Origin: Candidatus Omnitrophota bacterium
GTDB lineage: Bacteria; Omnitrophota; Omnitrophia; Omnitrophales; Aquincolibacteriaceae
NCBI GenBank assembly: GCA_022711115.1
Contig: JAKLFP010000003.1
Coordinates: forward strand, 201,199-265,198
Direction: 5' to 3'
Length of the DNA: 64,000 nt
How positions within the stretch are numbered: the first letter of the stretch is position 1; each line of letters begins with the position of its first letter. A model generated the notes under the pieces. It did not search any database. It was not told the DNA's origin and saw nothing but the letters and a program-made list of their open reading frames with translations. The position numbers were made by a program, and so were the translations under genes. This document shows, in pieces, positions 29,091 to 45,288 of the stretch.

Positions 29091-32000
29091 CTATTCGTTG
29101 GCCAAATAAAATTTGATGGCTCGCTCGAGCAGATAATGCAAAAGCACATCTTTATAAGAAAGCGACTCGTGATAAAAAGGTTTGATACTGACATCTTCTT
29201 TTTTTAGAAGCCGGCTGCTTAGTCGAAAAAATCTGATAGAACCATCGCCGGCATTGGGAATACGTTTGACACTATTTTGGGAACGCACTTGCTTTCTTGG
29301 GTCACTCGTTTGCGCCAACACATCCTGCAGAGTATTTTGCTCAGAAGTGATTTCAGATTGTTTGGCTAACGGCTGACTTTCGGTTTGAGAACCGGCGATC
29401 ATGGTTGCCGCGAGTCCTATCACACCGGCGGGAACGGTGCGGTCATAATAGGAAAAATTGTCCTGAATCTGGCTCCAAGCAAAATTCAAAAGCCCATAGC
29501 CGATGCCCCAAGGGTTAAATAATGAAAAAATTTGAGTCACGGAATTGTAGTTGACCAACGCATAAGTATGACTAGGAACGACGCCGCTTCCGGAGACAGG
29601 ATTGCTTTTGGCCGTGAAGGTGAGGAGCGTATTCGGAGTGTTCCACGAATTCACGACCACGTTCCATTGGCTCGGATCCGGCAACCAGCCTGTTGTAACC
29701 GCATTTCCGGAAATAGCCTCGAGCGCATATGAGGAACTTCCCCATCCGATCGCGCGGTAACTATTCGAGTTTTTACCCCACTTTTCATGGATCTGGACAA
29801 ACGCCTTCTCGGCAAGAGCTGCCCATAATTCGGCATTATAATCGTAGGCAAAAGCACCGCGATTGGCGTATACAAAAACCCACGACGGTTCAACCGGCAC
29901 CTGACGATCCACGGTGACATAATCTGCAATACCCTCCTTAAAAAATCGTACGGTATAAGTTCCGTCACCGTTATCGATGAACATATCTGCGATGACATCC
30001 GGAGTCCGGCGAGCCGTTTCCGCAAGAGCGGCCAGAAAATAGCAGTCTGATGTAGCCCCCTGCACAATATCGGAATAACTGATCCCATTGACAAAAAGAC
30101 GTCCCACAGCAGCTCCACGATAGCTGCCGTCTTCCGCAACCGGACGGTCGAGTCCTAGAAACCATTTATTCACAAGCTTTTGAAGTTGCGCGGCCGAAGA
30201 TCCGGGCATTAAATTCCCCAAGGCCGTCTCCTGATAAACAGCATTAGCCTGGTTCCCAAGAATAACGGCATTCGCGAGGACATGAACATAATCAAGTTCT
30301 TTATAAAAAGCAGGACGATTTTGCATCTCCTGCAAGAGTGAAAATTCCACTGCCGAAACAAGACCTTCATCCTGAACCGCGTTTAAAATGGACAACAGAT
30401 CAGCCCGATTCAAAATGCCGTCGGATAAATCCGCCTGAATCAAAGAAGCCAAAGCAGTATCCGGACTCACGGTATAGTTGGACCCGTTTACTCTAAAATA
30501 AATCGTTTGGCCATTGAGTTGCGTGATTTGGATTCGGGTCATCAAGGCAAAGGTCTGTATATCGCTGGCCCAGGTACGGAACGTGTCCATGATCCCGTCA
30601 AAGAGCAGTTTTGCATTGATGGCCGTGCCGGTGCGATAATCGGCCGTTAGGGTCGTGAAATCGGGAACCGCATTCGGTGAAATATCAAAAGAAAGCTGAC
30701 TCAGCGTACCCATCAGAAAACCACTCCCCGTTACGGTAATTTGACATCTTGGAGGCACACTTCCGCTGATATAGGCCGCGCTCACTATTGTCCCAGCACT
30801 CAAGGCCGCTTGAAACTGAGCCACGTAATTTTTAACTTGAGGAGACGGTTGCTGCTCGAGATGAACGCCAGTAGCGTCACGATAGGCCTTGTAGTAGGAG
30901 TTCTCCAGTCTAAAGTATGTCGTTTGATCCTCATCTTTGCCCGTAATCATGAGCTGCATCATCGCGTAAAGTGTCTGAATATCGTTCAGTTTTGAGATCG
31001 GCGACATTTTCAAAGCCTGGAATAACATGCTCGCAGGAACTGTGATGTCAGCCGCCGAACCTTTATAGTTAGCCCGAATCGAACCTGCCACCAATTGACC
31101 GTTCGGCGAAAGATTGAAGAACAGATCCTTGAAGGAACCTTGCATGTTCGGCCAGGGGTCATAAACATGCACTTCATATTCAGGATTGGCGCAAAGAGAG
31201 CAAAAAGATATTTGTGTTTCATAGTTATATGTAAAGAGAGCTTGCAATTGAGTCACATAATTCTGAACCGCGGTTCTGAAGGCTTGATACGATTGATTTT
31301 GATAATTGAAATAAATCACACCGTTGACAATAGAAGTCACATTCAATTGCGTCAAGGCCACAAGGGATGCGACATCATTTTTAAGAAAAGGCGATTGATG
31401 GAATGTGAGAAAAAGCAGATTCGAATCGATGCCAGCAATACCCTGATAACTTACCTGAAGGGTCGGAATATCGAGCGTTCCATTCTGTTTAATTACAAAT
31501 TCCATCCGGTTCAAGGCACCGGTCGCTGCGGCAGCATTGGTCACAATGACTTTATAGCCGGAGGTCCTGTAAACGTAGTGAAACGTCAAACTTCCGATGC
31601 TGTTTTTAAACGAAGAGAGTGTGGCCACAACAGGTGCCGGAATATCCATATCGGTTGATTGTTTGATAAGATCAACAAGATAACTTGTCCGGACCGACAT
31701 CGGATCTGTCCACACAAGCCATGAAGGTGAAGATACGGAAGTAATGTTCGCTGTGATGCTGCCGCTGGCCGAATCAACAACGATCCGGGTGATCTGAGAT
31801 CTCCAATTCCCTCCCTGACAATTGATATCACTACAGGTGGTCCGCCAGATGGAAGAAAGAACATAACCTGCCGCATAATTAAATTGGGCCTGCGTACCGG
31901 TCTTCAAATCCACCACTTGTTTGATGTTGTATTGACCACCATAAGTCATTATGACGATCTTGCCCACATCCATCAAAACACCATTTCGGGTTTCAGATAT

Positions 32001-32354
32001 AAATGCATTGATCTCATTGGAGTTCTGGGGATTCACAGAGACTCGGATATTCAACGGCACGCCGTTTGTACCATAATATTTTTGCAAGGCCGGCATCACC
32101 TGTGATGTGAGATTATCCATGGGTGTTGCCACACTAAGCGGTCCAAAAGGCACAAGGCTTCCGGAGGGAATCGATGTCTGCGTTGAAGTTTGTGAAGAAG
32201 TAGAGTTCGTTTGCGTTCCTTCAAAAGTCTGTGTGGGCATACTTTGGGCAAGCGGGTCCTTCTGCGTAGTTGGGGCCAAAAGTGCAAACCCCGTCGGCAT
32301 TATTTGGGTACTCACTAACAGGAAAGCCATTAGAACTGCTAAAGATTTTTTCAT
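29091..32354 (-). CDS. large secreted protein with C-terminal calpain-like cysteine protease (peptidase C2) domain; N-terminal region paralogous to a segment of the adjacent 2462-aa protein
   Basis: The signal peptide is MKKSLAVLMAFLLVSTQIMPTGFA. The calpain triad context is QGATSDCYFLAALA (Cys codon 30042-30044), SHTYALV (His) and FNPWG (Asn codon 29514-29516). The protein is 1087 aa. Confidence 0.8.
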   Translation of the reverse strand: MKKSLAVLMAFLLVSTQIMPTGFALLAPTTQKDPLAQSMPTQTFEGTQTNSTSSQTSTQTSIPSGSLVPFGPLSVATPMDNLTSQVMPALQKYYGTNGVPLNIRVSVNPQNSNEINAFISETRNGVLMDVGKIVIMTYGGQYNIKQVVDLKTGTQAQFNYAAGYVLSSIWRTTCSDINCQGGNWRSQITRIVVDSASGSITANITSVSSPSWLVWTDPMSVRTSYLVDLIKQSTDMDIPAPVVATLSSFKNSIGSLTFHYVYRTSGYKVIVTNAAAATGALNRMEFVIKQNGTLDIPTLQVSYQGIAGIDSNLLFLTFHQSPFLKNDVASLVALTQLNVTSIVNGVIYFNYQNQSYQAFRTAVQNYVTQLQALFTYNYETQISFCSLCANPEYEVHVYDPWPNMQGSFKDLFFNLSPNGQLVAGSIRANYKGSAADITVPASMLFQALKMSPISKLNDIQTLYAMMQLMITGKDEDQTTYFRLENSYYKAYRDATGVHLEQQPSPQVKNYVAQFQAALSAGTIVSAAYISGSVPPRCQITVTGSGFLMGTLSQLSFDISPNAVPDFTTLTADYRTGTAINAKLLFDGIMDTFRTWASDIQTFALMTRIQITQLNGQTIYFRVNGSNYTVSPDTALASLIQADLSDGILNRADLLSILNAVQDEGLVSAVEFSLLQEMQNRPAFYKELDYVHVLANAVILGNQANAVYQETALGNLMPGSSAAQLQKLVNKWFLGLDRPVAEDGSYRGAAVGRLFVNGISYSDIVQGATSDCYFLAALAETARRTPDVIADMFIDNGDGTYTVRFFKEGIADYVTVDRQVPVEPSWVFVYANRGAFAYDYNAELWAALAEKAFVQIHEKWGKNSNSYRAIGWGSSSYALEAISGNAVTTGWLPDPSQWNVVVNSWNTPNTLLTFTAKSNPVSGSGVVPSHTYALVNYNSVTQIFSLFNPWGIGYGLLNFAWSQIQDNFSYYDRTVPAGVIGLAATMIAGSQTESQPLAKQSEITSEQNTLQDVLAQTSDPRKQVRSQNSVKRIPNAGDGSIRFFRLSSRLLKKEDVSIKPFYHESLSYKDVLLHYLLERAIKFYLANE
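31274..32093. repeat. paralogous segment (copy 1) shared between the two giant genes, about 80% DNA identity with 36507..37326
   Basis: The encoded peptide LQKYYGTNGVPLNIRVSVNPQNSNEINAFISE...GKIVIMTYGGQYNIKQVVDLKTGTQAQFNYAAGYVLSSIWRTTCSDINC is nearly identical to the copy in the 2462-aa gene. Antisense ORFs 31884..32105 and 37117..37302 mirror each other. Boundaries are approximate. Confidence 0.75.
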
Positions 32355-32682: not shown

Positions 32683-35600
32683 TCAGACTGTAGCAGAAAG
32701 CAACGACCCCATAAGAACCCACACACCATTTATAAGCTGATACCAATTACTGTTATAGTAGATCCATTGCCCTGCCGGTTCAGAAAAAGCCGTATAGGAA
32801 ATCCCGTTATATCTAAAAACGATATCAAAACCCTGAATATTCGCCCCAGACCGAGACCTTGTGTTGGAAGTGCTCGATAAGTATTCAAAACTTTTGGCCC
32901 GAAGTGATAACTGCATCATTAAAAATTGTTCCGCACTTTCCAGGGGCTGCATCACTTCCGCTTCTGCCTCAGCATAGGTATAAAATGTTCCGGTCCTCGG
33001 ATTTATCACATCCCGGATCGCACCCGTCACCAGTTTCGATGCCAACCCATGAAAGCTGCTATCCGGAATCCGGTCCACAAGCCACTGCTGTCGATTGATA
33101 TCATGCTTATTGAAATTTAAAAGCCGCATCCAGTTCGCTGTCACCTGGTGTGCCCGCCATTCCATATGCGCTGCATCATCAACGACATCGATCGAGTGTT
33201 TCATTTCATGTGCCAGGATCGGTAAGGCAAGACGAGCTGAGGCAGCGCCTTGCGTTCCGCTGAGCGCCGTTAAATCACAGTAAAAGATAAGCACTTTATC
33301 AACAGTCGCTTGGATTGCAACACCCATCCCTGAAAAAATCCAACTAGCACTCGCTGAAGCATAAAAAGGATGTTCCTGCAATTGTCTTAAGACCAGATGA
33401 TACGGACTGCGTAAATAAGTGAGAAACGTCGCACTGTCTGTCTGCATGCCCAAGGCAATCATTTGTCTCATGGCGTTTCTCGCTTGGGCGTTGATCCCCT
33501 CCGCCACGAAGGTTTCATAGGTCGTCGTGACAAAATAGCTGGCCGGTTGTATCGAGCGAAAACTATTTTGAATATTGGTATACAGTTCCCTCGAAAAATT
33601 CTGCCGGCTTAGCAGCACATCCACAAAAAGCTGTCCCGATGAGTTGTAATAATCTGTGGTGTCCCCGTTCGCGTAGGTCCGCTTCGAATAATCCGGTGTG
33701 GTGTTGGTGCCCGTATAGCAATACTGCTGGGTCCATGCTGGCGTGCCGTTTGCGGCATATTGTGTCCTGACACTTAATCTCCCGAAAACGTCATTTTGAA
33801 CAACCGAGATCTGGGAACCCGCCGGCGCGGCAACGTCCACATCCACCAGCTTAGTCTGGCCGTTCCAATGCAAGCTGATCCTCACAACCGACCCACCCGG
33901 CAGCTGGATGCTTTCATATCCGACAAACCGGAAATTCTGGATCCCGGTACCAAAAATTTGCGCCACAATCTGTGGATTACCTGAGAGAATGCTGAAGGCC
34001 GCAGCTGTTTTTTCCTGCCTCGCAATTATGTCAGGCGATGCTCCGAGAACTCTGACGGCTTGAAAGGTTGCGGCATAGGCGTTCGCTTCCGAAACAAGAA
34101 TCGCTACATTAGGGTCTGCCGCTACATCAACCGAATGGGTTGCTTCATGAGCCACTCTCGGCACTATCCAGTTTCTTCGAGTCATGGAGTCTTGAGGAAG
34201 CGCAAGAAAAGGCTCGAGGGGCATTACAACGATATCGTAAGCTTCCGACGACATTGCGAATTGACTCAAAGCTTCGGGAGTGAGATTGATCCCTTTTAAG
34301 AACAGCACGGGAAACGAAGCTCCTGCCGGGAGAATGTGATTAACCGGATCCGTCATAAAAGCATAGGCTTGCGCCACAAGGTCCAAGTTTTGAGCGGTTG
34401 CCTGCACAGATTCCAGGAACTGCGCGGCAGTGATCTGTGTAAGAGGATCCTCCTGCCGCAACCCCGCAAACAAAGCGTCATAAGGAAGATACGTGCCCTG
34501 CAGGTTCACGATCCATTGGCCATTGTAATAGATCAATCCGCCGGAGAGATCGGAAAAAATATTTTGAAAAATATTTTGATTGGTACCGCTGTAAGAAAAA
34601 ACCATGTCATACCCGTTGTTCATTATTCCAAAATGATCTCTGTTTGCAGACGAGCTTGAGATGAACTGCAAAGAATTCATGCCCATACTCGCCAAATAAA
34701 GAATGGCGCTAGATTGATAAGGCGGTAAAAATTGAGAAAAAACAACACTTCGCAACCGACGTTCATTCCATTCGGTATTGTAAGTCGCCATTGCATTCGC
34801 AAGATCTTGGCTGGCAGAATTCAATTGGGCCAAGAGCGCCTGGAGTTCTGCCTCGCTCTTATAATTCAAATCACCGATGATCATCATCTGTGGATTTCGA
34901 GCGCTAAGCCCTAACATCTGAGCTCTTTGCATTTCAATTGATTCGAAATTAACCACTTGATCAAATTGATTCTGCGCGAGGCATTTCCAGTTCCAAATCA
35001 TTTTTTTCAGAGTATTGTAGGTTAGCAGGGTGTCTGCCTGCATGGGCGGCTCGATCACTGTACCGAAAACCTGAACTTTTGCGGCAGCAAAAGTCGCCCC
35101 TATCGCATTGATTTCCTGACTGAAAACAGAAAAATCCTGCGCTCTTCGGGCATTAAATTCTGTGGATTGGGTTATAAGAGATTGGATGACAGACTGAACA
35201 TTGTTGATCAAGGACATTTGGATATTTACCGAATGCCATGACGAGTCAACAAAAACCCAAAAACTCGTATCGGAAATTGCATGAACAAAAACAGTCTTAT
35301 GCCCGCCTCCTGGAAGCTGGAAGGTAAGTTCGCGCCCTGTAAGAATGACTGAATCCTTTGTCATAGACGCAACACGACTCGACTCAAAGACCATTTTCGT
35401 AATGCCCGATGCAAGAAGATTCAGTTGCGCGGCCCAAACAAGCCGGATGGCTCTTTCCCGTGAAATACCGTTCGCGAAATAATAATTTTGGACCAGAGTT
35501 CCTTCCGTGGATCCATCACCGGCAACATCGATCATATATTTTTCTTCGTTGATGGAGACTTGCGGGCTACCTAACATCTCCATCCATCTTACGGTTTCCG

Positions 35601-38600
35601 CTCTCGCATATTTTTCCGACGCCACCATCGGAGAATTGCAAATGCCTTTAACCCCGCAGTAAACATGCGCCATTTCATGCGCCATAAAGCTAGCCATTCC
35701 TCCCTTGGTGTTATCATTAAGTAAGGGGACAGAACCCAAATCAAGCGTAACGGTTGCCGTGGCAGCGACGCCATATCCGCCGCCGACATGAGGGGAACTG
35801 GGATTCGTCAAAATAATGAAATGGCGAAGCGTACTTAAAAGCTGCCCGAACCTTGCCGCATCTCGGTTCATTGCATACGCTATGAGATCTGTTAGGAAAT
35901 TCCGTTCAGAAGTTGTAGGCGCATGCGCGATAAACTCAGCGTAAGTCATGTTGCCAAAACTTTCTCGAATATAAGGAAATGCATTTTTTGTATTATTAAA
36001 TTCGATTTCCGTCATGGTCGTCCGATCCAGAAGCGCATCGACAAAACGCTGGCCGGCAGAATTATAATAATCGATATCGCCATTCGCATAAGTCCGCTTG
36101 GAATAATCCGGCGTGATGTTCGCGCCGGTGTAGTAATACTGCTGCGTCCATAAAAGCGTCCGGTTATCATATTGAGTCATCAGAGCTAAACGACCGATGG
36201 AATCATATCGTTTGATCGTCGCCTGAGAACCACTGACAAGCCATTGATACCACACGCCGTTGTAATAGATCCATTGACCGGATAGATCTGAAAAAGCATT
36301 GTAGAGAGTACTGCCGCGTCTGAAGACGATATTGTAGCCCTGAACACTTGTCCCAAAGCGGGAGGCCGTCGTGGAAGTGCTTGAAATATATTCAAAGCTA
36401 TTGGGGGCAAAGCTGAACTGGGTCATAAGAAATTGCTCCGCGCTATCCAGCGGCACTGACGGAAGAAGATAAATCTGTGTGGACGGTGCCGGGGCTTTAA
36501 AAATCACATAGGAAAGAGTTTGATACACAAATTTGATAGAACCGCTGGAGCCCGCCTGAACGTTACTGATTCGTGGCAACATGGTCAGCGCAGCCACATC
36601 ACTAATGCCGGGTTGTAAAAGTTTCATGCCCTCGAATAACAATGAACCGTTTGGCGTTAGATTTGTTGTCGCGCCTTTATAAGTCAACTGAAGAGTCGTT
36701 AAGTCGATGGTTCCATTCCGCCTGACCACAAATTCCATCCGGCTTAAGCCACCGACAATCGCGGTTGGATTGGTGACAATAACTTTATAACCTCCGGTGA
36801 CATAGAAATAATGAAATGTCAAACTGCCGATATTGTTCTTAAATGAGGAGAGTGTGGCCGCAACAGGTACGGGAATGTCCATGTCTGTTGATTTTTTGAT
36901 AAGATCCGCAAAACTGGTGAAACTCACGGACGTTGCATCTGTCCATACAAGGAATGTAGGCGACGAAACTGAAGTAACAGTCGCAGTGCCACTGCTGGTC
37001 GAAGAATCAAGGGTGGTAACACTGATCTGTGATTTCCAATACCCTCCTCGACAATTGATATCACTGCAGGTCGTTCGCCAGATAGAAGAAAGGACATAGC
37101 CTGCCGCGTAATTGAATTGAGCCTGCGTGCCAGTCTTGAGATCCACAACGCGGCTGATGTTATACTGGCCACCATAGGTCATGATCACGATCTTCCCCAC
37201 ATCTTTCATGACGCCATTCTGGAGTTCGGATATAAATACATTGATCTCGTTAGAGTTTTGAGGATTCACAGAAACACGGATATTCGCCGGCAACCCGCTT
37301 AGCCCATAATATTTCTGCAACGTCTGCATCAAGGGCGTTTCATCCTGATACGTCACAATCGTACCATTGCGATAGATCTTATAAAACTTCCCCTGCCACC
37401 CAAGATGAATAGCTCCTGTCGGTTCCACGCTGTAAATCGTACTTTGAGTGAGGCGGATAAGTGCATCTCGATCCGCAGTAATGGCTGGAGTTAAAAGTTT
37501 GATCGCGGAAAACAATAATTGCTGATCCAAAGATGTGATATCCTGATAGCTGATACTTTGGATGGCGTCCAGACTTCCATTGGCAAGCAGTGAAAAAGAT
37601 GCGGATACAAAGGTCCCTCTCGGATGAGTGTTGTTATTGATAATCTCGGTAAGAAGTTTGCCAGCACCCGTGTCATAACGCAAACTGACCTTCAAACCAC
37701 TAGGAAGCATGGATTGTAACGTGATGGCATTCTGTAAACTGTAAGCAGCTGTTTGAAGGATTTTGTTTGTTTTTGCATTGGTATGCCAAACAATTGCCGC
37801 ATCCATGCTTTGAGCAATCGAAGTCAATTGCTGTTGGGTTTGGAGAAGTTCAGTTCGCGTGGCAAAATAAACATTGGTCATAAACTGTGCGGCCTGCTGC
37901 AACACGTAACCATCAAGGCCCAATTCATTGGCTCGCTGGACCTCGGCGATGCTGAATTCGACCACGCTGTCATATGCATTAGTCAGCATCTTTTTCCCGT
38001 TCCACAAAATCTTCAGAATTGTGGTAAACGATAGAAGAAGATCGGGATCCGTCGGCGGAGTAACAATAGTCCCGTTAATTGTTAATACAGCACTTGCAAA
38101 TGTGGAGCCCGACACATCGATCGGTCCGAAAAGAGCGGTAAAAGTTTGATTTAAAAGGGTCGTGATCGTATTGGCTTTTGTTGCGAGCTGTTGCTGCAAG
38201 GCTTCGATCGAGGTTATTAATTCGAAATTATTATAAAAATCATGCCAGGTGCCGTCAAAGAGTGAAATAGTTTCATTGGAAGTACCAGGATTGATGATAT
38301 TCGAAACAAAAATGGTAGCGGTCTGAAATTCAACCGTATGACCAGTAACCGTGCCAGAACCACGTGTCATAGATCCCGCGGTCACCGAGACCAGTTGCGG
38401 GACTACTTTGGAATCGCTCGTCTGCTGCGCTACTTGGTAGATTCTGGCAATTTCTTCGGGCGAGCGCATGAAGAGCGCGCTTTCATTAAAAACAACCTGC
38501 CTTCCGGAATAAAATGTCTCAGCAAAAAGCGGCCCTGTGATAACTTCTTGCCAATGAGATCCGTTCAAATAAATTTGGCTATTCCAGGGATCGATCCACC

Positions 38601-40071
38601 AATATCTTCCGAAAGCAGGTCGATCGCCGCCCATCCAATAACGCATGTTATCTAGTGGTATCTCGCCGAAATTATAATAAACCCGAGAACTTACTGTTGA
38701 TGTGCCCGGAATTAAAAAAGTTTGATAAGCATAACCGGAGAGATTGCTTTGACCATACTCGGGAATAAAATGATACGAATCATTGCCTCCGAAGATTTCC
38801 GCCCAGCCAGCATGTTCTTTGATCCAATTGATGGCGTTGATTTCTCGCCACTCCGTATATTGCTCATTATGCCCAAAGCCTGCTTGCCCGAATTCGCCGG
38901 GAACATCGAGAGGATCAATCCCATAAAGAGAATCTGTCTCGCCGCCAATAGCATGATATCCTTCATGAAGAATGATCCCTATCACACCGGAACGACCAGC
39001 GCCCAAAGTTTGATCCGGTTTAAACATACGAGCCCCTAAGGAGATTTGCGCGCTTGCCCAACCCATGCTGGAATACCAAAACCTTGTAGAACCACAAACA
39101 GGCCTGACGTAATCGGCGCTTATCACGTGAACAGTCTGTTTAAATTTATTCCAGAAATCAGCTGCAAAATGCCTGAGAGATGTTAATACATCCAATATGA
39201 CTTGAGTGGTGCTGGCTAAGAAACCACTGATATACCCGAAAATCATGGATCGGTAATGTTCCGTCCATTCTGCATACCATTCGTCTCGAGTGATATCACG
39301 CTCCGCCTGACTGTACATTAGATTTGGCTCATTGGGCTGACTAAGCGTTCCATCGCCAGGAGATAGGTCATACGCTTCTCCTGCACTTTGATCGAAAATC
39401 GCACTGCCCTGTTCATCCCGATAAACCATGTAGCGTTGATTATTTTGTTCGTAATAAATAACTCCTTTTTCATTGACTGTTTCAATTTTGATTTCAGTAA
39501 GCTTACTTAGCGCATTTTGAACATTGATATCATTTTGCGTTGATTCGCTCATTCCCTTAAAAATCAGATCGCCGTCGACATTCTCCACACCGGAATAAAC
39601 AGTTTCTTTGACTTCGCTGAATGTTCCGTCTGCTTTTAAACTAACCTTCATGAATTTGAATTTGCCATTTCCTTGAACATCTGAAAGGTTGTGAACTACA
39701 ACAAAATACTCATTCGCTTCCGGATCGTACCGGGTTTCAATGGAATAGCTTTTCCCAAGGTTCTTTTGAAGCTGATCCACCAAAGCCTTCGCGGTAACAG
39801 GTAATTCAGGTTGAAGTTTATCTTCCGGCATTGCGGGTGAAATCGGACTCGGCTCTTGAAGGCTTCCGGAGGGAAGTTCCGGTGCAGATTTATCCGGCAA
39901 CACGGTACTGGATAGGGCATCTACAGTTTTAGTTTGCTGGCTTCTTGGATCTGAAAGTGTAATGGGTTCATCCGCATAGACCGGAGACAGAGGGGTGACG
40001 GAAAAAAAGCACATCAAAATACTCAGGTATAAAGATATCCCCTTAGTGCACAGCCTCATGTTAAATTTCAC
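32683..40071 (-). CDS. giant secreted multi-module protein (2462 aa) with four HExxH zincin-like motifs, YD-repeat-like segments and a triplicated beta-rich module
   Basis: The signal peptide ends ...PLSPVYA. A Pro-rich linker follows. The HExxH motifs are HEGYH (codons about 38953-38967), HEMAH, HEATH and HEMKH. The YD-like segments are YDSIGRLALMTQYDNRTL...PDYSKRTYANGD and a second copy. The three copies of the SFEY..SSTS..QG..IVF..AFS..GQWIYYN module are detailed in the findings. Confidence 0.8.
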   Translation of the reverse strand: MKFNMRLCTKGISLYLSILMCFFSVTPLSPVYADEPITLSDPRSQQTKTVDALSSTVLPDKSAPELPSGSLQEPSPISPAMPEDKLQPELPVTAKALVDQLQKNLGKSYSIETRYDPEANEYFVVVHNLSDVQGNGKFKFMKVSLKADGTFSEVKETVYSGVENVDGDLIFKGMSESTQNDINVQNALSKLTEIKIETVNEKGVIYYEQNNQRYMVYRDEQGSAIFDQSAGEAYDLSPGDGTLSQPNEPNLMYSQAERDITRDEWYAEWTEHYRSMIFGYISGFLASTTQVILDVLTSLRHFAADFWNKFKQTVHVISADYVRPVCGSTRFWYSSMGWASAQISLGARMFKPDQTLGAGRSGVIGIILHEGYHAIGGETDSLYGIDPLDVPGEFGQAGFGHNEQYTEWREINAINWIKEHAGWAEIFGGNDSYHFIPEYGQSNLSGYAYQTFLIPGTSTVSSRVYYNFGEIPLDNMRYWMGGDRPAFGRYWWIDPWNSQIYLNGSHWQEVITGPLFAETFYSGRQVVFNESALFMRSPEEIARIYQVAQQTSDSKVVPQLVSVTAGSMTRGSGTVTGHTVEFQTATIFVSNIINPGTSNETISLFDGTWHDFYNNFELITSIEALQQQLATKANTITTLLNQTFTALFGPIDVSGSTFASAVLTINGTIVTPPTDPDLLLSFTTILKILWNGKKMLTNAYDSVVEFSIAEVQRANELGLDGYVLQQAAQFMTNVYFATRTELLQTQQQLTSIAQSMDAAIVWHTNAKTNKILQTAAYSLQNAITLQSMLPSGLKVSLRYDTGAGKLLTEIINNNTHPRGTFVSASFSLLANGSLDAIQSISYQDITSLDQQLLFSAIKLLTPAITADRDALIRLTQSTIYSVEPTGAIHLGWQGKFYKIYRNGTIVTYQDETPLMQTLQKYYGLSGLPANIRVSVNPQNSNEINVFISELQNGVMKDVGKIVIMTYGGQYNISRVVDLKTGTQAQFNYAAGYVLSSIWRTTCSDINCRGGYWKSQISVTTLDSSTSSGTATVTSVSSPTFLVWTDATSVSFTSFADLIKKSTDMDIPVPVAATLSSFKNNIGSLTFHYFYVTGGYKVIVTNPTAIVGGLSRMEFVVRRNGTIDLTTLQLTYKGATTNLTPNGSLLFEGMKLLQPGISDVAALTMLPRISNVQAGSSGSIKFVYQTLSYVIFKAPAPSTQIYLLPSVPLDSAEQFLMTQFSFAPNSFEYISSTSTTASRFGTSVQGYNIVFRRGSTLYNAFSDLSGQWIYYNGVWYQWLVSGSQATIKRYDSIGRLALMTQYDNRTLLWTQQYYYTGANITPDYSKRTYANGDIDYYNSAGQRFVDALLDRTTMTEIEFNNTKNAFPYIRESFGNMTYAEFIAHAPTTSERNFLTDLIAYAMNRDAARFGQLLSTLRHFIILTNPSSPHVGGGYGVAATATVTLDLGSVPLLNDNTKGGMASFMAHEMAHVYCGVKGICNSPMVASEKYARAETVRWMEMLGSPQVSINEEKYMIDVAGDGSTEGTLVQNYYFANGISRERAIRLVWAAQLNLLASGITKMVFESSRVASMTKDSVILTGRELTFQLPGGGHKTVFVHAISDTSFWVFVDSSWHSVNIQMSLINNVQSVIQSLITQSTEFNARRAQDFSVFSQEINAIGATFAAAKVQVFGTVIEPPMQADTLLTYNTLKKMIWNWKCLAQNQFDQVVNFESIEMQRAQMLGLSARNPQMMIIGDLNYKSEAELQALLAQLNSASQDLANAMATYNTEWNERRLRSVVFSQFLPPYQSSAILYLASMGMNSLQFISSSSANRDHFGIMNNGYDMVFSYSGTNQNIFQNIFSDLSGGLIYYNGQWIVNLQGTYLPYDALFAGLRQEDPLTQITAAQFLESVQATAQNLDLVAQAYAFMTDPVNHILPAGASFPVLFLKGINLTPEALSQFAMSSEAYDIVVMPLEPFLALPQDSMTRRNWIVPRVAHEATHSVDVAADPNVAILVSEANAYAATFQAVRVLGASPDIIARQEKTAAAFSILSGNPQIVAQIFGTGIQNFRFVGYESIQLPGGSVVRISLHWNGQTKLVDVDVAAPAGSQISVVQNDVFGRLSVRTQYAANGTPAWTQQYCYTGTNTTPDYSKRTYANGDTTDYYNSSGQLFVDVLLSRQNFSRELYTNIQNSFRSIQPASYFVTTTYETFVAEGINAQARNAMRQMIALGMQTDSATFLTYLRSPYHLVLRQLQEHPFYASASASWIFSGMGVAIQATVDKVLIFYCDLTALSGTQGAASARLALPILAHEMKHSIDVVDDAAHMEWRAHQVTANWMRLLNFNKHDINRQQWLVDRIPDSSFHGLASKLVTGAIRDVINPRTGTFYTYAEAEAEVMQPLESAEQFLMMQLSLRAKSFEYLSSTSNTRSRSGANIQGFDIVFRYNGISYTAFSEPAGQWIYYNSNWYQLINGVWVLMGSLLSATV
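36507..37326. repeat. paralogous segment (copy 2) inside the 2462-aa gene, homologous to 31274..32093
   Basis: See copy 1. The coordinates were derived from the 5233-bp offset between mirrored antisense ORFs and are approximate. Confidence 0.75.
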
Positions 40072-40289: not shown

Positions 40290-40835
40290 TCAACGATTTT
40301 TTCTGAGAAGCTGATCACTGTAGGAGTCGGCGATGAGGTCGCGTTTTTTGACACCTAAAAGCTGTTGATAATATTCACATCGCGCTTTAAGTTTTATGGC
40401 TTGTTTTGCAGGACCAAACACTTCGATCTCTACAAATTTTCCGAGTCCTCTCACCTGATCGATATGGAATTTTGTATTGCGAATGAAATAGATTTCGCGC
40501 TTTTTATCGACCACAGTCAAAATCCCCAAGGCATGAGAAAGAAGCTTCTTCAGGACGGTCAGGGACGGTTCTCTTGCGGAGAACCGTCCCTGTTTGCTAA
40601 GCTTACAGAGAATGGCGTCGCAGCGCTTGGAATTCTTCTGATCCGTGCGCTTGTAATAAATGAGGGCATTCTCGATATTCCCCTTGCGGAGCTTTAAACG
40701 ACCGGTCGGGACGCAGAAGTAGGTATCGATCTGGTGGTCGAGGCCTTTATAAACGGCTTTTTGGCCTCTGAGAATCTGGCGCACACCGGCCGGATTATGA
40801 CACCTAGCTTTGATCTCGATACTGATGCGGTTCAT
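40290..40835 (-). CDS. CYTH domain protein (class IV adenylate cyclase CyaB-like / triphosphatase)
   Basis: It starts SIEIKARC, matching the EIE(R/I)K CYTH signature. Its length of 181 aa and the C-terminal FVEIEV motif fit the family. Confidence 0.65.
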   Translation of the reverse strand: MNRISIEIKARCHNPAGVRQILRGQKAVYKGLDHQIDTYFCVPTGRLKLRKGNIENALIYYKRTDQKNSKRCDAILCKLSKQGRFSAREPSLTVLKKLLSHALGILTVVDKKREIYFIRNTKFHIDQVRGLGKFVEIEVFGPAKQAIKLKARCEYYQQLLGVKKRDLIADSYSDQLLRKNR

Positions 40836-40966
40836 GAAACGACTCCTCTATAAACGTCGTCGCGAGGCCGTCGCAGACGTGCCGTGGCGATCTCCCGATT
40901 TGGGGCTTGAATATTAAGAGATTGCTTCCTTCCTGTCTTGCTGTCGCAATGACACTCTCAAAATCT

Positions 40967-41788
40967 TTAGAACGGAAGCTTTATTTTTTTCTTGAGGTCG
41001 CTCGCCGTGTGGGTCACGCTCTTGGCTAGTGTCTTAGCCTGTTCTTCCACAACATCTCCGGCTTGACCGGCAAACTGGCCTGCGTATTGGCTTGCCATAT
41101 CCGTGGCACTGCCCAGAACCCCGGAAATGCTTCCGGTGAGGGCATTCACATTGAAACCGCTGAGCATGGCAAGCGGCGTTTTGGTCATGACCTTGTAAAC
41201 AATCAACTTCACAAGCTGGTTCGGGTCCGTAATATTTTGAAAAGTTTCATCCAATCCCACGTTAAAATCCGTGGTAGAAGCCGTGCCGCCGGTATAATTG
41301 ATAAAAGCGGCTTTCCCGACCTTGAGATGGAGCAAATCGACTTGAAACGCCAGGCCCTTTCCCTTTTGCTCAGGTGCCGGTTGGGCAGGCTGTTGGGCCT
41401 CACCGCCTTTTTGTTGCAATGCCTTTAACGAATCAAGATTGAGCGCTCCCTTCTCGTTCCGCACCACATTGAATTGTTTCAAATCAAATTCGACTTGCTT
41501 GAAATGGAGCTTTCCGGTCAAAATGGCGGCGCGCTGATAAGCTATAAGGATTTTCGGAATTTCTACCAGGATTGTGTCATGAAAACCGGCGGGATTCTTG
41601 AGCACTAAGCCTTCCATGTCCACCGAGGTATTCAGGATATCTAGATCAAACTTCTGAATGGAAAGCGACATCCCCGTCAAGATTTTTGCGCCGGTCTCCA
41701 ACACGGCCTTGATCACAATATTGCGCGCGAGCAATAACACGGCAAGCAAAGCAAGAACGATCACAAAAAAACCTACTATTTTTTTCAT
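40967..41788 (-). CDS. membrane-anchored hypothetical protein (AsmA-like/DUF748-like N-terminal anchor)
   Basis: It has a single N-terminal TM helix and a Gln/Ala-rich linker. I recognise no catalytic motif. Confidence 0.35.
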   Translation of the reverse strand: MKKIVGFFVIVLALLAVLLLARNIVIKAVLETGAKILTGMSLSIQKFDLDILNTSVDMEGLVLKNPAGFHDTILVEIPKILIAYQRAAILTGKLHFKQVEFDLKQFNVVRNEKGALNLDSLKALQQKGGEAQQPAQPAPEQKGKGLAFQVDLLHLKVGKAAFINYTGGTASTTDFNVGLDETFQNITDPNQLVKLIVYKVMTKTPLAMLSGFNVNALTGSISGVLGSATDMASQYAGQFAGQAGDVVEEQAKTLAKSVTHTASDLKKKIKLPF

Positions 41789-41799
41789 ATCCCCCCCTT

Positions 41800-42486
41800 T
41801 TATTTGTTGAATGAGTTCGAAATGGGTATGACTTGACTGCCATCCGGACTGATTTGAGAAGCAATGTCGGCCCGGCCATTGGCTTCACACCAACGCCTGA
41901 CCGTTCTCAAAACAGCCGGGAGCCATTCCTGATGATAGCCCAGCATCAACATTTCCCGGTAGATATCTTCGAATTTTTCGTCTGTGTATTTGATCTTGTA
42001 GATCGCAGCAATCAATCCCGTACGGTCCTTACCTGCAGCGCAGTGAATCAATACCGGTTGCTCCGACGGATTGGATACCACGTCAAGGATCTGATCGATC
42101 AGACCCAGATCCTGATCTTCCCTAGCATCCATCGGGAAATAATAGTATCGCAATCCCAATTTCTGAGCCAATTTCTTTTCAACGCCTTGTTTTTCTTCAT
42201 CCTCACGCAAGTTGACGACTGTTTTTAGCCCGTGCACTTTCATCCGCCTCAAGGACTCTTCGTTGGGCTGTGCGGAACGCCAAATCCCAGGGGACACAAG
42301 ATGGAAGTTATGCTGTTTCGCAACAACGGATGTGGTTGAGGCCTTATCCTTGGGAAATCGCGCAATGGATTGGGAAAGTCCGTGAGGGCGGACAACCATG
42401 CTGGTTTTTAAAACAGATAACACACCGACCATCAGAAAAAAACCAACCAGGCTTCCGAGCAATATCCTGAAAAAGCTTTTTTTCAT
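41800..42486 (-). CDS. secreted protein-tyrosine/dual-specificity phosphatase
   Basis: It has an N-terminal signal/TM segment and the CX5R P-loop HCAAGKDRTG. Confidence 0.75.
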   Translation of the reverse strand: MKKSFFRILLGSLVGFFLMVGVLSVLKTSMVVRPHGLSQSIARFPKDKASTTSVVAKQHNFHLVSPGIWRSAQPNEESLRRMKVHGLKTVVNLREDEEKQGVEKKLAQKLGLRYYYFPMDAREDQDLGLIDQILDVVSNPSEQPVLIHCAAGKDRTGLIAAIYKIKYTDEKFEDIYREMLMLGYHQEWLPAVLRTVRRWCEANGRADIASQISPDGSQVIPISNSFNK

Positions 42487-42496
42487 CTTCCAGACC

Positions 42497-44290
42497 TCAT
42501 GTTTTGACGGGTTGCTGACTCATTCTTTTAAAAATCGCTTCTTCCACGACCATTTCTTTCCGCGCGCGAATACGGGCCAGATGCTGTTCCAGGCGTTCGG
42601 CGGGCACACCCAGTTGTTCCAGCACCACGCGGTTAAGCTCATGACTCGCTTCCCATTCCTCCATGACTACCATATCGGCCCCAAGCTCGTAAAGCGGAGC
42701 CGTCTGATTTTCATAACGGGTCCGGACTGCGAGAATGACTTCCGGATTCAAGTCCTGAACCACACGGATAATTTGTGACATGCTGAGTGTGTCAGGAAAA
42801 CTGACGACCACGGCTTTTGCCCGGGATATGCCGACACGTTTCATGACCTCCCGATTAGCGGCATCGCCATAAATCACCTTCATATGCAACTTCTTGGCTT
42901 CACGCACCTTCAAAGGATTCATTTCAATGATCACAAAAGGAATCTTTTCCGTTATAAAGGCATTCGCAAGATCCCGGCCCGTAGGCCCGAACCCGCAAAG
43001 AATAACATGCCCTGTAAGTGAAGATAAAGAACGATCCTCTCGGGTCCAGTTCTTGGGCGGTACTCCGAAGATCACGAACCTTCCGAGAATCTTGAGCATC
43101 AGCGGAATGGAAGCGAACAAAAGCGGCGTCAGCAACATGGTCAAAAACGCTGTCGAAAGCAAAACCTGATAAAGCTCCAGATTAATATGTCCGGAACTGC
43201 GAGCCATTTCGATCAAAAGGAACGAAAATTCCCCGATCTGAGAAAGAATCACTCCGGTCATCATCGCCACTCGAGGCGGGAACCCGAAGGCCATGATGAT
43301 GATAGTCATAATGACAAAGTTGATAAAAAGCACGAAGCTTACTGTCAAAAAGACTAGTTCAATATGCTGGAAGAAGAAACCTATGTCAAAAAGGAGGCCT
43401 ATCGAAACAAAAAAGATACTCACGAAAAGATGGCGAAACGGTATGATATCGCCTATGAGCTGATGCGAAAAACCCGTGTTCGCAAACATGAATCCCGCCA
43501 AAAGGGCTCCGATCGCCATCGAAAGTCCCAAGGCGCTGCTCAGCCAGGTCATGCCGAGACAGACCACCACCGAAAAAAGAAAAAAAATCTCGCGGCTACG
43601 GATCACCGCAACGCGATACAGCAGCTGCGGCAAAAGAAAGCGGGAAAACACAAAAGCGCTTAAGAGAAGCAGGAGTGTTTTAAGAAAAGCAAAAATCAGC
43701 GCGATTTCGATGGATTCGATCGATTGCCCGAAAACAGAAAGGAAAATCATGATCGGCACAACCGCCAAGTCCTGGAAGATCAGGATCGAGATTGAAATAC
43801 GCCCGTGCGGCGTGTCGATCTCCCCCCTGTCCATGAGGTATTTCAGAACGATCGCTGTGGAACTAAGTGCAATCACAGCCCCAAGGAAAAAACCTTCGTA
43901 AAAACCCCAGCCGCACCACCACCCAAAAATCAAAGACAGTCCGATGGAAACCAGAATTTGCATTGTCCCACCCCAAATCGCAATATTCTGCATCCCACGC
44001 AAGCGTTCAAAGGAAAACTCCAGTCCAATAGTCAGCATCAAAAGAACGACACCCATCTCGGCGAGTGAGCGGATATGTTCGGGATCGGAAAGGATTCTGA
44101 AACCATGAGGTCCGATAAGGACCCCGGTCAGAAGAAAGCCAAGGATTGCGGGCAACCGGAATTTTTCAAAAAAAACAGCGACGGCCGTAGCGATCATCAA
44201 AACCAGAAGAAGTTCATTAAAAAAAGCCGTATTCGCCATGGGCCCCGTCAGATTGGTGGATTGAGATGTGCTGCTGCTGATATTATACAA
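42497..44290 (-). CDS. CPA2 family monovalent cation:proton antiporter (KefB/KefC-like) with C-terminal RCK/TrkA-N domain
   Basis: A 13-TM Na_H exchanger domain is followed by the Rossmann motif HVILCGFGPTGRDLA. Confidence 0.85.
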   Translation of the reverse strand: MYNISSSTSQSTNLTGPMANTAFFNELLLVLMIATAVAVFFEKFRLPAILGFLLTGVLIGPHGFRILSDPEHIRSLAEMGVVLLMLTIGLEFSFERLRGMQNIAIWGGTMQILVSIGLSLIFGWWCGWGFYEGFFLGAVIALSSTAIVLKYLMDRGEIDTPHGRISISILIFQDLAVVPIMIFLSVFGQSIESIEIALIFAFLKTLLLLLSAFVFSRFLLPQLLYRVAVIRSREIFFLFSVVVCLGMTWLSSALGLSMAIGALLAGFMFANTGFSHQLIGDIIPFRHLFVSIFFVSIGLLFDIGFFFQHIELVFLTVSFVLFINFVIMTIIIMAFGFPPRVAMMTGVILSQIGEFSFLLIEMARSSGHINLELYQVLLSTAFLTMLLTPLLFASIPLMLKILGRFVIFGVPPKNWTREDRSLSSLTGHVILCGFGPTGRDLANAFITEKIPFVIIEMNPLKVREAKKLHMKVIYGDAANREVMKRVGISRAKAVVVSFPDTLSMSQIIRVVQDLNPEVILAVRTRYENQTAPLYELGADMVVMEEWEASHELNRVVLEQLGVPAERLEQHLARIRARKEMVVEEAIFKRMSQQPVKT

Positions 44291-44866: not shown

Positions 44867-45283
44867 ATGAATGATTCCAGAAAAAAATTTCCTAACCAAC
44901 AAACAGGCTTTACCCTTATAGAGGTCATGCTTGCTTTACTTATCATGGCCGTTGCGATCGGCAGCTACGTGGGGACCAATATGCTTATCCAACGGAACGC
45001 GGAAGTTCAGTTTGAACGCAGTATTGCCGTCCAAGACGCCAACAGGGTCATTGAGAGAATGCGGAATGCCGCCATCAGTGGAATATTTCCCGGTAATGTT
45101 GTGGCGGCATTCCCGAATGGCGGTTTTGTCCTCGGATTCACAAACCTGACCAGTGAGGTCGTGAATGTTCATTATACCTCGACAACTTCCGACCCGCTGG
45201 ATGCAACGGTAACTGTGAATTGGCAGTCCCATACCGGGCGAGGTTCAACTTTAGCATTGAGATCCATGCTAACACAGAGGTGA
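44867..45283 (+). CDS. prepilin-type N-terminal cleavage/methylation domain protein (minor pilin/pseudopilin-like)
   Basis: GFTLIEVMLALLIMAVAIGSY is the class III signal-peptide motif G|FTLIE. The start was chosen at the internal Met (MNDSRKK) of ORF 44837..45283. Confidence 0.65.
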   Translation: MNDSRKKFPNQQTGFTLIEVMLALLIMAVAIGSYVGTNMLIQRNAEVQFERSIAVQDANRVIERMRNAAISGIFPGNVVAAFPNGGFVLGFTNLTSEVVNVHYTSTTSDPLDATVTVNWQSHTGRGSTLALRSMLTQR

Positions 45284-45288
45284 CAGGC

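What the first reader, a model, noticed from the sequence alone, without database searches (positions are those of the whole stretch)
32683..40071. Internal architecture of the 2462-aa protein: four zincin-like HExxH sites, two YD-repeat-like blocks and a triplicated beta-rich module
I see four separate HExxH pentapeptides: HEGYH near residue 369, then HEMAH, HEATH and HEMKH. Each sits after a hydrophobic beta-like stretch, as in zincin active-site helices. The two blocks RYDSIGRLALMTQYDNRTLLWTQQYYYTGANITPDYSKRTYANGDIDYYNSAGQRFVDALL and VFGRLSVRTQYAANGTPAWTQQYCYTGTNTTPDYSKRTYANGDTTDYYNSSGQLFVDVLL fit the YxYDxxGRL logic of RHS/YD repeats. A roughly 60-aa module recurs three times, the last copy at the extreme C-terminus: QFLM.Q.S....SFEY.SSTS....G..IQG..IVF...G..Y.AFS...GQWIYYN..WYQ. 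The GQW/WYQW patterns recall QxW beta-trefoil lectin repeats. Several protease-like units fused to carbohydrate-binding-like repeats in one polypeptide is unusual.
Basis: seen in the sequence. Interest (0 to 1): 0.7.

Follow-up and report, generated by a model that had tools for sequence, protein, structure and literature searches.

The report
Secreted giant protein with four zincin-like units
A 2462-residue secreted protein of an uncultured Omnitrophota bacterium carries four copies of a previously undescribed metalloprotease-like domain; next to it lies a gene for a cysteine protease built on the same scaffold, so the two look like a pair of extracellular protease weapons.

Summary
The four HExxH motifs, both 60-aa blocks and the triplicated ~70-aa module are all present.

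Three HExxH sites (HEMAH 1465, HEATH 1975, HEMKH 2288) belong to one domain family that matched no Pfam or NCBIfam family, and no PDB sequence, above threshold. Across relatives, HExxH is intact in 24/28 and 19/19 copies. A downstream Glu is invariant in 47/47.

The "QxW lectin" module is not a lectin. It is the C-terminal beta-sheet subdomain of each zincin-like unit. The "YD" blocks are three YD-like hairpins, not an Rhs cage.

The downstream gene encodes a calpain-type protease that shares a 279-aa scaffold stretch (63% identity).

Best reading: a secreted multi-headed metallohydrolase from an Omnitrophota-enriched family. Catalysis and substrate are untested.

The parts
32683..40071 (-). 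Whole ORF, 2462 aa from GTG (2458 aa from Met5 in the public annotation). Named 'hypothetical protein PLO78_05775', Candidatus Omnitrophota bacterium MAG.
39970..40071 (-). N-terminal Sec-type signal peptide (aa 1-34: basic n-region, hydrophobic core, VYA|DEP). Assigned by inspection only.
   Evidence: sequence read directly; no predictor was run
39415..39741 (-). A module, copy 1 (aa 111-219). A ~110-aa scaffold repeat of unknown function.
38152..39294 (-). Unit 1 (aa ~260-640). Probable very divergent zincin-like unit with HEGYH (aa 369-373; nt 38953-38967), candidate Glu 403 and a C-like beta part at ~547-589.
   Evidence: 13.7 bits, collinear match; hhalign E 0.017, same register; 0/2000 shuffles
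37732..38154 (-). B module, part 1 (aa 640-780). Matches a protein that reads as coiled-coil by inspection (P0011).
37366..37689 (-). A module, copy 2 (aa 795-902).
36757..37200 (-). X module (aa 958-1105). Lies inside the 279-aa stretch (aa 914-1192) that is 63% identical to the downstream calpain-like protein.
36493..36822 (-). A module, copy 3 (aa 1084-1193).
36226..36453 (-). C module, copy 1 (aa 1207-1282). A 'leading' beta module with no Z part directly before it.
36022..36225 (-). Y module 1 (aa 1283-1350). YD-like beta-hairpins containing RYDSIGRL.
35233..36021 (-). Unit 2 (aa 1351-1613). Zincin-like Z-C unit with HEMAH (aa 1465-1469; nt 35665-35679) and Glu 1486; its own C-like end is at ~1560-1613.
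34735..35235 (-). B module, part 2 (aa 1613-1779).
34462..34704 (-). C module, copy 2 (aa 1790-1870).
33835..34440 (-). Unit 3 (aa 1878-2079). Compact zincin-like domain with HEATH (aa 1975-1979; nt 34135-34149) and invariant Glu 1995. The same domain type occurs in giant Omnitrophota proteins.
33604..33813 (-). Y module 2 (aa 2087-2156). YD-like hairpins, modelled as five strands.
32731..33603 (-). Unit 4 (aa 2157-2447). Canonical Z-C unit with HEMKH (aa 2288-2292; nt 33196-33210), invariant Glu 2304 and C module copy 3 (aa 2376-2447).
29091..32354 (-). Downstream partner gene, 1087 aa: signal peptide, X module, three A modules and a calpain-type (Peptidase_C2) domain. Cys, His and Asn motifs are visible (QGATSDCYFLAA, SHTYAL, NPWG).
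   Evidence: (Pfam E 2e-20); motifs read directly

Best explanation
The gene encodes a Sec-exported, modular extracellular protein of an Omnitrophota bacterium. Its working parts are four copies of a previously undescribed zincin-like domain, which I call the Z-C unit.

Each unit consists of a helical N-part, a three-stranded sheet, an active-site helix carrying HExxH, a following helix carrying a conserved Glu, further helices, and a six-stranded beta-sheet subdomain.

Inferred: the two His and the downstream Glu bind a divalent metal, most likely Zn. The motif Glu then acts as general base to hydrolyse peptide bonds, or a similar amide bond, in extracellular or cell-surface targets.

The A, X and B modules and the short YD-like hairpins are non-catalytic scaffold.

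The neighbouring gene places a calpain-type cysteine protease on the same scaffold. The locus therefore looks like a pair of secreted proteases with interchangeable warheads, plausibly used on the envelope of a host or prey cell. An independent paralogue in the same genome and the Omnitrophota-enriched distribution fit a lineage-specific, diversifying effector family.

Shown here: module architecture, motif conservation, fold and gene neighbourhood. Inferred: export, metal binding, hydrolysis, target and biological role.
For: - Four HExxH motifs are observed against 0.023 expected.
- In 28 Z-C units, HExxH is intact in 24 and the downstream Glu in all 28.
- In 19 unit-3-type domains sharing 23-78% identity with the window copy, H, E, H and E are invariant with a fixed 15-residue spacer.
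- The two domain types are homologous: hhalign probability 96.7%, E 3.5e-10, 145 columns including the beta part.
- AlphaFold2 models: aa 2087-2462 has pLDDT 90.1 and pTM 0.88; aa 1863-2087 has pLDDT 94.0 and pTM 0.89. Both show sheet, HExxH helix, then Glu helix.
- A signal-peptide-like N-terminus is visible in both genes.
- The downstream calpain-type protein shares 279 aa at 63% identity and three A modules.
- In tandem-unit relatives (for example P0005 and P0009) the unit is the recurrent payload rather than an accessory to something else.
- Named carriers are Omnitrophota, plus one Endomicrobiales.
Against: - No activity data exist.
- The single best structural match is an Fe/alpha-ketoglutarate oxygenase, not a peptidase.
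- I could not inspect model coordinates, so ligand geometry is unverified.
- No Pfam or NCBIfam peptidase family reaches threshold. The best are Peptidase_M91 at E 0.04, DUF6782 at 0.012 and SprT-like at 0.047.
- Four of 28 relative units have lost a His (RELAH twice, HDMAY, HEAGA). Three of those four are at the position of this protein's unit 4, so some copies can do without the full motif.
- Unit 1 is only weakly related to the family.
- The signal peptide was judged by eye.
- The predation or host-attack role is pure inference from what is published on Omnitrophota lifestyles (PMC10066038; bioRxiv 10.1101/2023.11.21.568195).
Confidence: 0.55

Rival explanations
1. The units are Fe(II)/alpha-ketoglutarate-dependent HExxH oxygenases like ChlH, BpmH and PflC. 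They would hydroxylate or oxidatively cleave peptide substrates rather than hydrolyse them.
For: - Two His plus one carboxylate is also the classic facial triad for Fe/alphaKG chemistry (established knowledge).
- That family was itself first annotated as metallopeptidase and has a zincin-like fold (PMC12636437).
Against: - No match to any NCBIfam model, among which I expected the HEXXH-motif-domain model of this family (IPR026337 per PMC12636437). This holds for the whole protein and for 47 unit sequences.
- No PDB sequence-profile hit to 8s5f.
- Known members are cytoplasmic RiPP tailoring enzymes in gene clusters with precursor peptides, radical SAM or MNIO partners (PMC12636437, PMC13060819).
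- Here there is a signal peptide, tandem copies, a calpain-like neighbour and no precursor-like or tailoring genes.
- An exported enzyme would lack a supply of alpha-ketoglutarate and Fe(II).
- PflC itself hydrolyses peptides with Zn, Co or Fe (PMC12636437), so fold similarity does not exclude hydrolysis.
Confidence: 0.1
2. The units are cis-acting processing domains. They would cut the polyprotein into separate pieces after export, as pre-toxin metallopeptidase domains do in polymorphic toxins, rather than attacking foreign substrates.
For: - The architecture is modular with short linkers between units.
- C39 and S8 peptidase domains in giant Omnitrophota proteins have been proposed to self-process (bioRxiv 10.1101/2023.11.21.568195).
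- The catalytic motifs are intact.
Against: - Nothing toxin-like or otherwise enzymatic is found between or after the units for them to release.
- Relatives consist of little besides tandem units (P0005, P0009, P0013).
- Four processing domains for one polypeptide is excessive.
Confidence: 0.15
3. The units are non-catalytic: metal-stabilised structural or binding modules (pseudo-proteases) in a large surface or adhesin-like protein.
For: - Four of 28 units in relatives have lost a motif His while keeping the rest of the domain.
- The protein is dominated by scaffold repeats (A, B, X, Y).
- No known peptidase family is matched.
Against: - The general-base Glu of HExxH is kept in 27/28 and 19/19 units. 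The downstream Glu is kept in 47/47 across sequences as low as 16-25% identical.
- That pattern is typical of retained catalysis, not of a purely structural metal site.
- All four motifs in this protein are intact.
Confidence: 0.15
4. The HExxH occurrences are chance in a long, repeat-rich protein.
For: Three of the four sites are paralogous, so they are not independent events.
Against: - Only 0.023 motifs are expected in the whole protein.
- The motif is column-conserved across 47 homologous units from other proteins.
- It sits on the predicted active-site helix of a zincin-like fold.
- Even the outlier, unit 1, aligns its HEGYH to the family's HExxH column, and 0/2000 shuffles reach its score.
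Confidence: 0.01

Closest known systems
Gluzincin metallopeptidases (zincin fold with HExxH plus a downstream Glu: thermolysin M4, M1 aminopeptidases, M30 hyicolysin/lugdulysin, M48 BepA, minigluzincins such as selecase)
   Different: No sequence-level membership in any Pfam, NCBIfam or PDB peptidase family. The His-to-Glu spacer is short (11-31 residues, fixed at 15 in the unit-3 type). The N-terminal helical part and the obligatory C-terminal six-strand beta subdomain are the family's own. Units occur in tandem within one polypeptide.
alphaKG-dependent HExxH beta-hydroxylases (ChlH domain of ChlBH, PDB 8s5f; SjiH 22ob; BpmH, PflC/PosC, PesO; IPR026337)
   Different: 8-15% identity with no profile match. 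Those enzymes are cytoplasmic RiPP tailoring enzymes in biosynthetic clusters. This protein looks exported, is multi-copy, and has no such cluster around it.
Rhs / YD-repeat proteins (Tc toxin BC components, T6SS Rhs effectors, teneurins)
   Different: No PF05593 match. There are only about three hairpins per block, far too few for an encapsulating shell. No Rhs-type aspartyl autoprotease or C-terminal toxin was found by any family search.
Giant multi-enzyme proteins of Omnitrophota ('Archaeovorins' and relatives)
   Same: Same phylum, exported, modular, with hydrolase or peptidase domains, and proposed to act on other cells' envelopes (bioRxiv 10.1101/2023.11.21.568195; 10.64898/2026.06.07.730766). 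The unit-3-type domain is found inside such giants of 2,482-5,734 aa.
   Different: This protein is ten-fold or more smaller than the largest of those. None of the Pfam domains reported for them (C39, S8, dockerin, glycosyl hydrolases or transferases) was found in it. Its repeated unit is not mentioned in those papers: searches for HExxH, zincin and metalloprotease found nothing.

Membership tests
Zincin / gluzincin fold superfamily | HExxH on an alpha-helix (the active-site helix) | tested here: met
   HEMKH lies at model residues 202-206 within helix 189-208. HEATH lies at 113-117 within helix 100-123.
Zincin / gluzincin fold superfamily | Third metal ligand Glu on the following helix, conserved in the family | tested here: met
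   Glu 2304 (model residue 218, helix 214-231) is invariant in 28/28 units. Glu 1995 (model residue 133, helix 129-146) is invariant in 19/19.
Zincin / gluzincin fold superfamily | Beta-sheet before the active-site helix, and overall fold similarity to solved zincins | tested here: met
Zincin / gluzincin fold superfamily | Metal-dependent peptide hydrolysis | not testable with these tools
   Needs biochemistry.
Zincin-like Z-C unit, applied to site 1 (HEGYH 369) | Significant profile match with HExxH in the family's column | tested here: inconclusive
   hmmsearch gives 13.7 bits with a collinear match, and 0/2000 shuffles reach it even with the motif kept. hhalign gives only E 0.017 at 2.6% probability. 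Against the unit-3 profile only the motif aligns. No homologue of this region was found, but that search did not even recover the protein itself.
alphaKG-HExxH hydroxylases (IPR026337) | Match to the family's sequence model | tested here: not met
   No NCBIfam hit at E<=1 for the whole protein or for 47 unit sequences. 8s5f is absent from the PDB profile searches at E<=10. That the HEXXH-motif-domain model is part of the NCBIfam library is my own recollection.
alphaKG-HExxH hydroxylases (IPR026337) | Genomic context of a RiPP cluster (precursor peptide, radical SAM or MNIO partner); cytoplasmic enzyme | tested here: not met
   Neighbours are a calpain-like protease, CYTH, a DUF748/AsmA-like protein, a phosphatase and a Na/H exchanger. 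A radical SAM gene at 28013-29086 lies on the other strand beyond the calpain gene and is not fused. A signal peptide is present.
alphaKG-HExxH hydroxylases (IPR026337) | alphaKG-binding residues and Fe/alphaKG-dependent oxidation | not testable with these tools
Metzincins | Extended motif HExxHxxGxxH/D plus a Met-turn | tested here: not met
   Read from the sequence. Only HEGYHAIGGETD has the Gly at position 8, and it has Thr at position 11. The other three sites have no Gly or His in register.
Rhs / YD repeats (PF05593) | Repeated YD-type motif recognised by the family model; dozens of repeats forming a shell | tested here: not met
Ricin-type beta-trefoil lectins ((QxW)3) | Three ~40-aa subrepeats, each with QxW, forming a 12-strand trefoil; match to the lectin family models | tested here: not met
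Calpain family (Peptidase_C2), for the neighbouring gene 29091-32354 | Pfam match above cut-off and a Cys/His/Asn triad | tested here: met
   PF00648 at E 2.1e-20, 73.4 bits against a cut-off of 23.8. The motifs QGATSDCYFLAA, SHTYAL and NPWG were read.

The most novel reading that the evidence does not exclude
The Z-C unit is a new, Omnitrophota-centred branch of the zincin-like fold. Its closest solved relative is the Fe/alphaKG HExxH oxygenase domain rather than any peptidase. On this reading the tandem units would perform a non-standard metal-dependent chemistry on the surface of another cell, for example oxidative or hydrolytic cleavage of unusual envelope amide bonds. Each of the four diverged units would have a different specificity, giving a 'multi-tool' effector. 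It would be paired with a calpain-type protease on an exchangeable delivery scaffold.
Probability: 0.15. Interest if true: 0.8.

Novelty: new variant of a known kind. Interest (0 to 1): 0.55.

Why it matters
Omnitrophota are uncultured, mostly ultra-small bacteria suspected of preying on or parasitising other microbes. How they attack is unknown, and most of their large proteins have no annotated function.

This work defines a repeatable ~200-300-aa unit with a conserved HExxH...E site and a confident zincin-like model. The unit recurs in tandem here, in a paralogue in the same genome, and inside giant proteins of up to 5,734 aa. That turns part of this 'dark' protein space into a testable enzyme hypothesis and gives alignments that could seed a new family model.

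The unit's closest solved relative is the recently discovered alphaKG-HExxH oxygenase domain. The family may therefore help to trace how that unusual oxygenase fold relates to ordinary zincin peptidases.

Four zincin-like heads in one chain, next to a calpain-type protease on the same scaffold, is an uncommon architecture. It suggests modular swapping of protease warheads.

Tried and rejected
- **Plus strand.** Translating the given coordinates on the plus strand gives a frame full of stops. The gene is on the minus strand.
- **Whole-protein searches.** Pfam, NCBIfam, PADLOC, PHROGs and PDB-sequence searches gave only sub-threshold motif-level hits (Peptidase_M91 at E 0.04, SprT-like at 0.16) or nothing. 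Per-segment Pfam at E<=10 gave nothing meaningful.
- **Word-indexed homologue search.** It had poor recall. The whole protein returned itself plus one scaffold relative. The unit-1 region returned nothing, not even itself. The unit-3 profile returned one protein. The exhaustive HMMER search supplied the usable homologues.
- **PDB profile searches** with A1 and A3 gave no significant hit.
- **Structure libraries.** The afdb50 fold library was not available. BFVD viral structures had nothing with E<=0.001.
- **GTDB genome scan.** It failed with the 28-sequence alignment and once by machine error. With a narrower alignment it gave a single locus, a 4.4-kb contig binned to 'Ca. Woesebacteria' that encodes P0005.
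- **Operon structure.** The promoter and terminator scan of the flanks was not above chance, so this is undecided.
- **Unit 1 model.** I ran no further search on unit 1. With no homologues, a single-sequence model would probably be poor. Threading it into the family alignment would have biased the result.
- **Rejected readings.** Beta-trefoil lectin, Rhs cage, metzincin, defence-system component and phage protein, for the reasons given in the membership table.
Full report
**1. The observation**

The ORF lies on the minus strand of 32683..40071. It has 2462 codons from a GTG start. The plus-strand translation is full of stops. The public record starts at Met5 (2458 aa) and calls it a hypothetical protein of a Candidatus Omnitrophota MAG. 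The same gene is found on five contigs, and the three loci fetched come from three independent assemblies.

The four HExxH pentapeptides are at residues 369 (HEGYH), 1465 (HEMAH), 1975 (HEATH) and 2288 (HEMKH). From the protein's composition only 0.023 are expected. Both quoted 60-aa blocks (1288-1348 and 2095-2154) and the three copies of the ~70-aa module (1207-1282, 1790-1870, 2376-2447) are present.

**2. Internal architecture**

Segment-wise self-BLAST and small iterated HMMs give this order:
- signal peptide (1-34, by inspection)
- A1 (111-219)
- unit 1 with HEGYH (~260-640)
- B part 1 (to 780)
- A2 (795-902)
- X (958-1105)
- A3 (1084-1193)
- C1 (1207-1282)
- Y1 (1283-1350)
- unit 2 with HEMAH (1351-1613)
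- B part 2 (to 1779)
- C2 (1790-1870)
- unit 3 with HEATH (1878-2079)
- Y2 (2087-2156)
- unit 4 with HEMKH plus C3 (2157-2447)

The start of each 'B' repeat is itself a degenerate C-like beta segment that ends the preceding unit.

**3. Relatives**

Pfam, NCBIfam and PDB-sequence searches of the whole protein and of ten segments gave nothing above threshold. The only hints were motif-level: Peptidase_M91 at E 0.04, DUF6782 at 0.012 and SprT-like at 0.047.

The word-indexed homologue search found only the protein itself and P0002, which shares just the A module.

The exhaustive HMMER search of 1.84 billion cluster representatives, using aa 1207-2406, found 34 proteins. They fall into two groups.

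Group (i), about 16 proteins, is built from tandem Z-C units with a recurring pattern:
- 'LLDRTxITxxEF...' at the start
- HExxH
- SE(A/R)NAYAE
- ADHIPDNxY
- AMAPL
- a C module of the form 'YISS...GxxxxGYxFxF...FVDLSGEWIYYNGQW'

Group (ii) consists of proteins of 164-5,734 aa that carry one copy of the compact unit-3-type domain.

Named carriers are Omnitrophota (P0006, P0014, P0018, P0039) and one Endomicrobiales (P0032). P0006 (2359 aa) is a paralogue in the same MAG (locus tag PLO78_07395). The GTDB representative-genome scan found a single locus, a 4.4-kb contig binned to 'Ca. Woesebacteria'.

**4. Conservation of the sites**

In an alignment of 28 Z-C units (A3), the downstream Glu (Glu 2304 here) is invariant and H, E, H are nearly invariant. 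HExxH is intact in 24/28 units. The exceptions are RELAH (twice), HDMAY and HEAGA.

In 19 unit-3-type domains (A4; 23-78% identity to the window copy), H1975, E1976, H1979 and E1995 are the only invariant columns, and the His-to-Glu spacer is fixed at 15.

The two profiles are homologous: hhalign probability 96.7%, E 3.5e-10, over 145 columns that include the terminal beta part. No member of either alignment reaches any Pfam or NCBIfam family.

**5. Fold**

AlphaFold2 on A3 (target aa 2087-2462) gave pLDDT 90.1 and pTM 0.88. The model shows, in order:
- five beta-strands (the Y module)
- a helical part
- three strands
- a helix carrying HEMKH
- a helix carrying Glu 2304
- more helices
- a six-strand sheet (the C module)

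AlphaFold2 on A4 (aa 1863-2087) gave pLDDT 94.0 and pTM 0.89, with the same core and a three-strand terminal sheet.

| Match | aa 2087-2462 model | aa 1863-2087 model |
|---|---|---|

The sheet, HExxH helix and Glu helix arrangement is the gluzincin layout (established knowledge). I could not inspect coordinates, so ligand geometry is inferred.

**6. The fourth site**

Unit 1 (HEGYH) has no detectable homologue. However, that search did not recover even the query's own protein, so the negative is weak.

Against the Z-C profile it scores 13.7 bits in a collinear match. 'HVISADY' aligns to the family's 'HIVI' strand, HEGYH to the HExxH column, and aa 547-589 to the C module. hhalign gives the same register but only E 0.017. 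Of 2000 shuffles that keep HEGYH in place, none reaches 13.7 bits; the maximum is 10.4. I treat unit 1 as a probable but unproven divergent copy. Its candidate third ligand, Glu 403, is unverified.

**7. The other two claims**

YD-like blocks:
- No RHS_repeat model matches.
- Three hairpins cannot form a cage.

QxW lectin:
- There is one GQW per module, and the module is modelled as a six-strand meander that is an integral subdomain of the unit.
- Not supported.

**8. Context**

The next gene downstream on the same strand (29091-32354) encodes a 1087-aa protein. It has a signal-peptide-like N-terminus, the X module, three A modules and a calpain-type domain (Pfam E 2e-20). The Cys, His and Asn motifs are visible. 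It shares 279 aa at 63% identity with aa 914-1192 of the big protein.

Upstream genes encode CYTH, DUF748/AsmA-like, phosphatase and Na/H-exchanger proteins. No RiPP-type, secretion-system, defence or phage signal was found. The flank scans do not settle whether the two genes are co-transcribed.

The paralogue P0006 sits next to a serine recombinase gene.

**9. Interpretation**

The most likely reading is an exported, multi-headed metallohydrolase built from a new family of zincin-like units. It is paired with a calpain-type protease on the same scaffold. It plausibly acts on proteins of other cells, in line with the lifestyle proposed for Omnitrophota (PMC10066038; bioRxiv 10.1101/2023.11.21.568195).

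What is shown:
- the architecture
- motif conservation
- the fold
- the gene neighbourhood

What is inferred:
- export
- metal identity
- hydrolysis
- target

Rivals:
- Fe/alphaKG oxygenase chemistry. It has the best structural match but lacks the sequence match, the genomic context and an intracellular location.
- Self-processing of the polyprotein.
- Non-catalytic modules. A minority of units in relatives have lost a His.
- Chance, which is excluded.

**10. Novelty**

The fold class is known, but several things are not described in the libraries or papers I could search:
- the family itself
- its obligatory beta subdomain
- its tandem multi-copy use
- its presence in giant Omnitrophota proteins
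- the calpain partner on a shared scaffold

I rate it a new variant of a known kind, of moderate to good interest.

Noticed in passing
window 29091-32354 (-): The downstream gene encodes a 1087-aa secreted-looking calpain-type cysteine protease (Pfam PF00648, E 2e-20; Cys/His/Asn motifs present). It shares the X module and three A modules with the big protein: 279 aa at 63% identity. Bacterial calpain-like proteases on a shared 'delivery' scaffold with a multi-zincin protein look like warhead swapping.
   Followed up: partly
L001 8001-15080 (P0006); neighbours at L001 5737-7783: P0006 is a 2359-aa paralogue in the same MAG (PLO78_07395). It uses the same modules in a different order, with four full Z-C units plus a leading C module, and one unit is degenerate (RELAH). 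It lies directly beside a serine recombinase (Resolvase/Recombinase/Zn_ribbon_recom) and a DUF2924 gene, which hints at mobility.
   Followed up: partly
P0017, P0018, P0023, P0024, P0029, P0030, P0031, P0034: The compact unit-3-type HExxH...E domain sits inside giant proteins of 1,887-5,734 aa. These also carry ART-PolyVal, Fic, CheB methylesterase, Peptidase_M48 and methyltransferase domains. Several of them share a conserved N-terminal region ('...H(V/I)Q(N/D)AH(A/C)NY...') that matches no Pfam family.
   Followed up: partly
P0005, P0006, P0012 units aligned to window aa 2288-2292: In relatives, the unit type corresponding to this protein's unit 4 (HEMKH) has repeatedly lost a motif His (RELAH in P0006 and P0012, HDMAY in P0005) while keeping the downstream Glu. 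This unit type may be drifting towards a non-catalytic role.
   Followed up: partly
window 40060-40071 (-): Start-codon ambiguity. The longest ORF starts at GTG (2462 aa), whereas the public annotation starts at the ATG for Met5 (2458 aa). This has no effect on the domains.
   Followed up: no
window 40290-44290 (-) and 45220-47027 (+): Upstream on the same strand lie a CYTH-domain protein, a DUF748/AsmA-like protein, a DSP-type phosphatase (which also matches the polymorphic-toxin Tc-R-P model) and a Na/H exchanger with TrkA_N. On the other strand is a prepilin-type N_methyl protein followed by a DUF7305 protein, suggesting a pilus or pseudopilus locus.
   Followed up: no
window 26788-27561 (-): A 257-aa protein matches the GIDE family (E 5.8e-9), described in Pfam as an E3 ubiquitin ligase. 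I did not expect to see this family in a bacterium.
   Followed up: no
L003 13-2949 (+): The only hit in the GTDB representative-genome scan is a 4.4-kb contig assigned to a 'Candidatus Woesebacteria' MAG. It encodes P0005 (three tandem Z-C units) next to what I read, untested, as an ATPase (AAA/DUF4143-like) gene. Such a short contig may be mis-binned.
   Followed up: partly
tool behaviour: The word-indexed homologue search missed relatives of 42-50% identity that the exhaustive HMMER search found. In one case it did not return the query's own protein. Negative results from it should be read as weak.
   Followed up: yes
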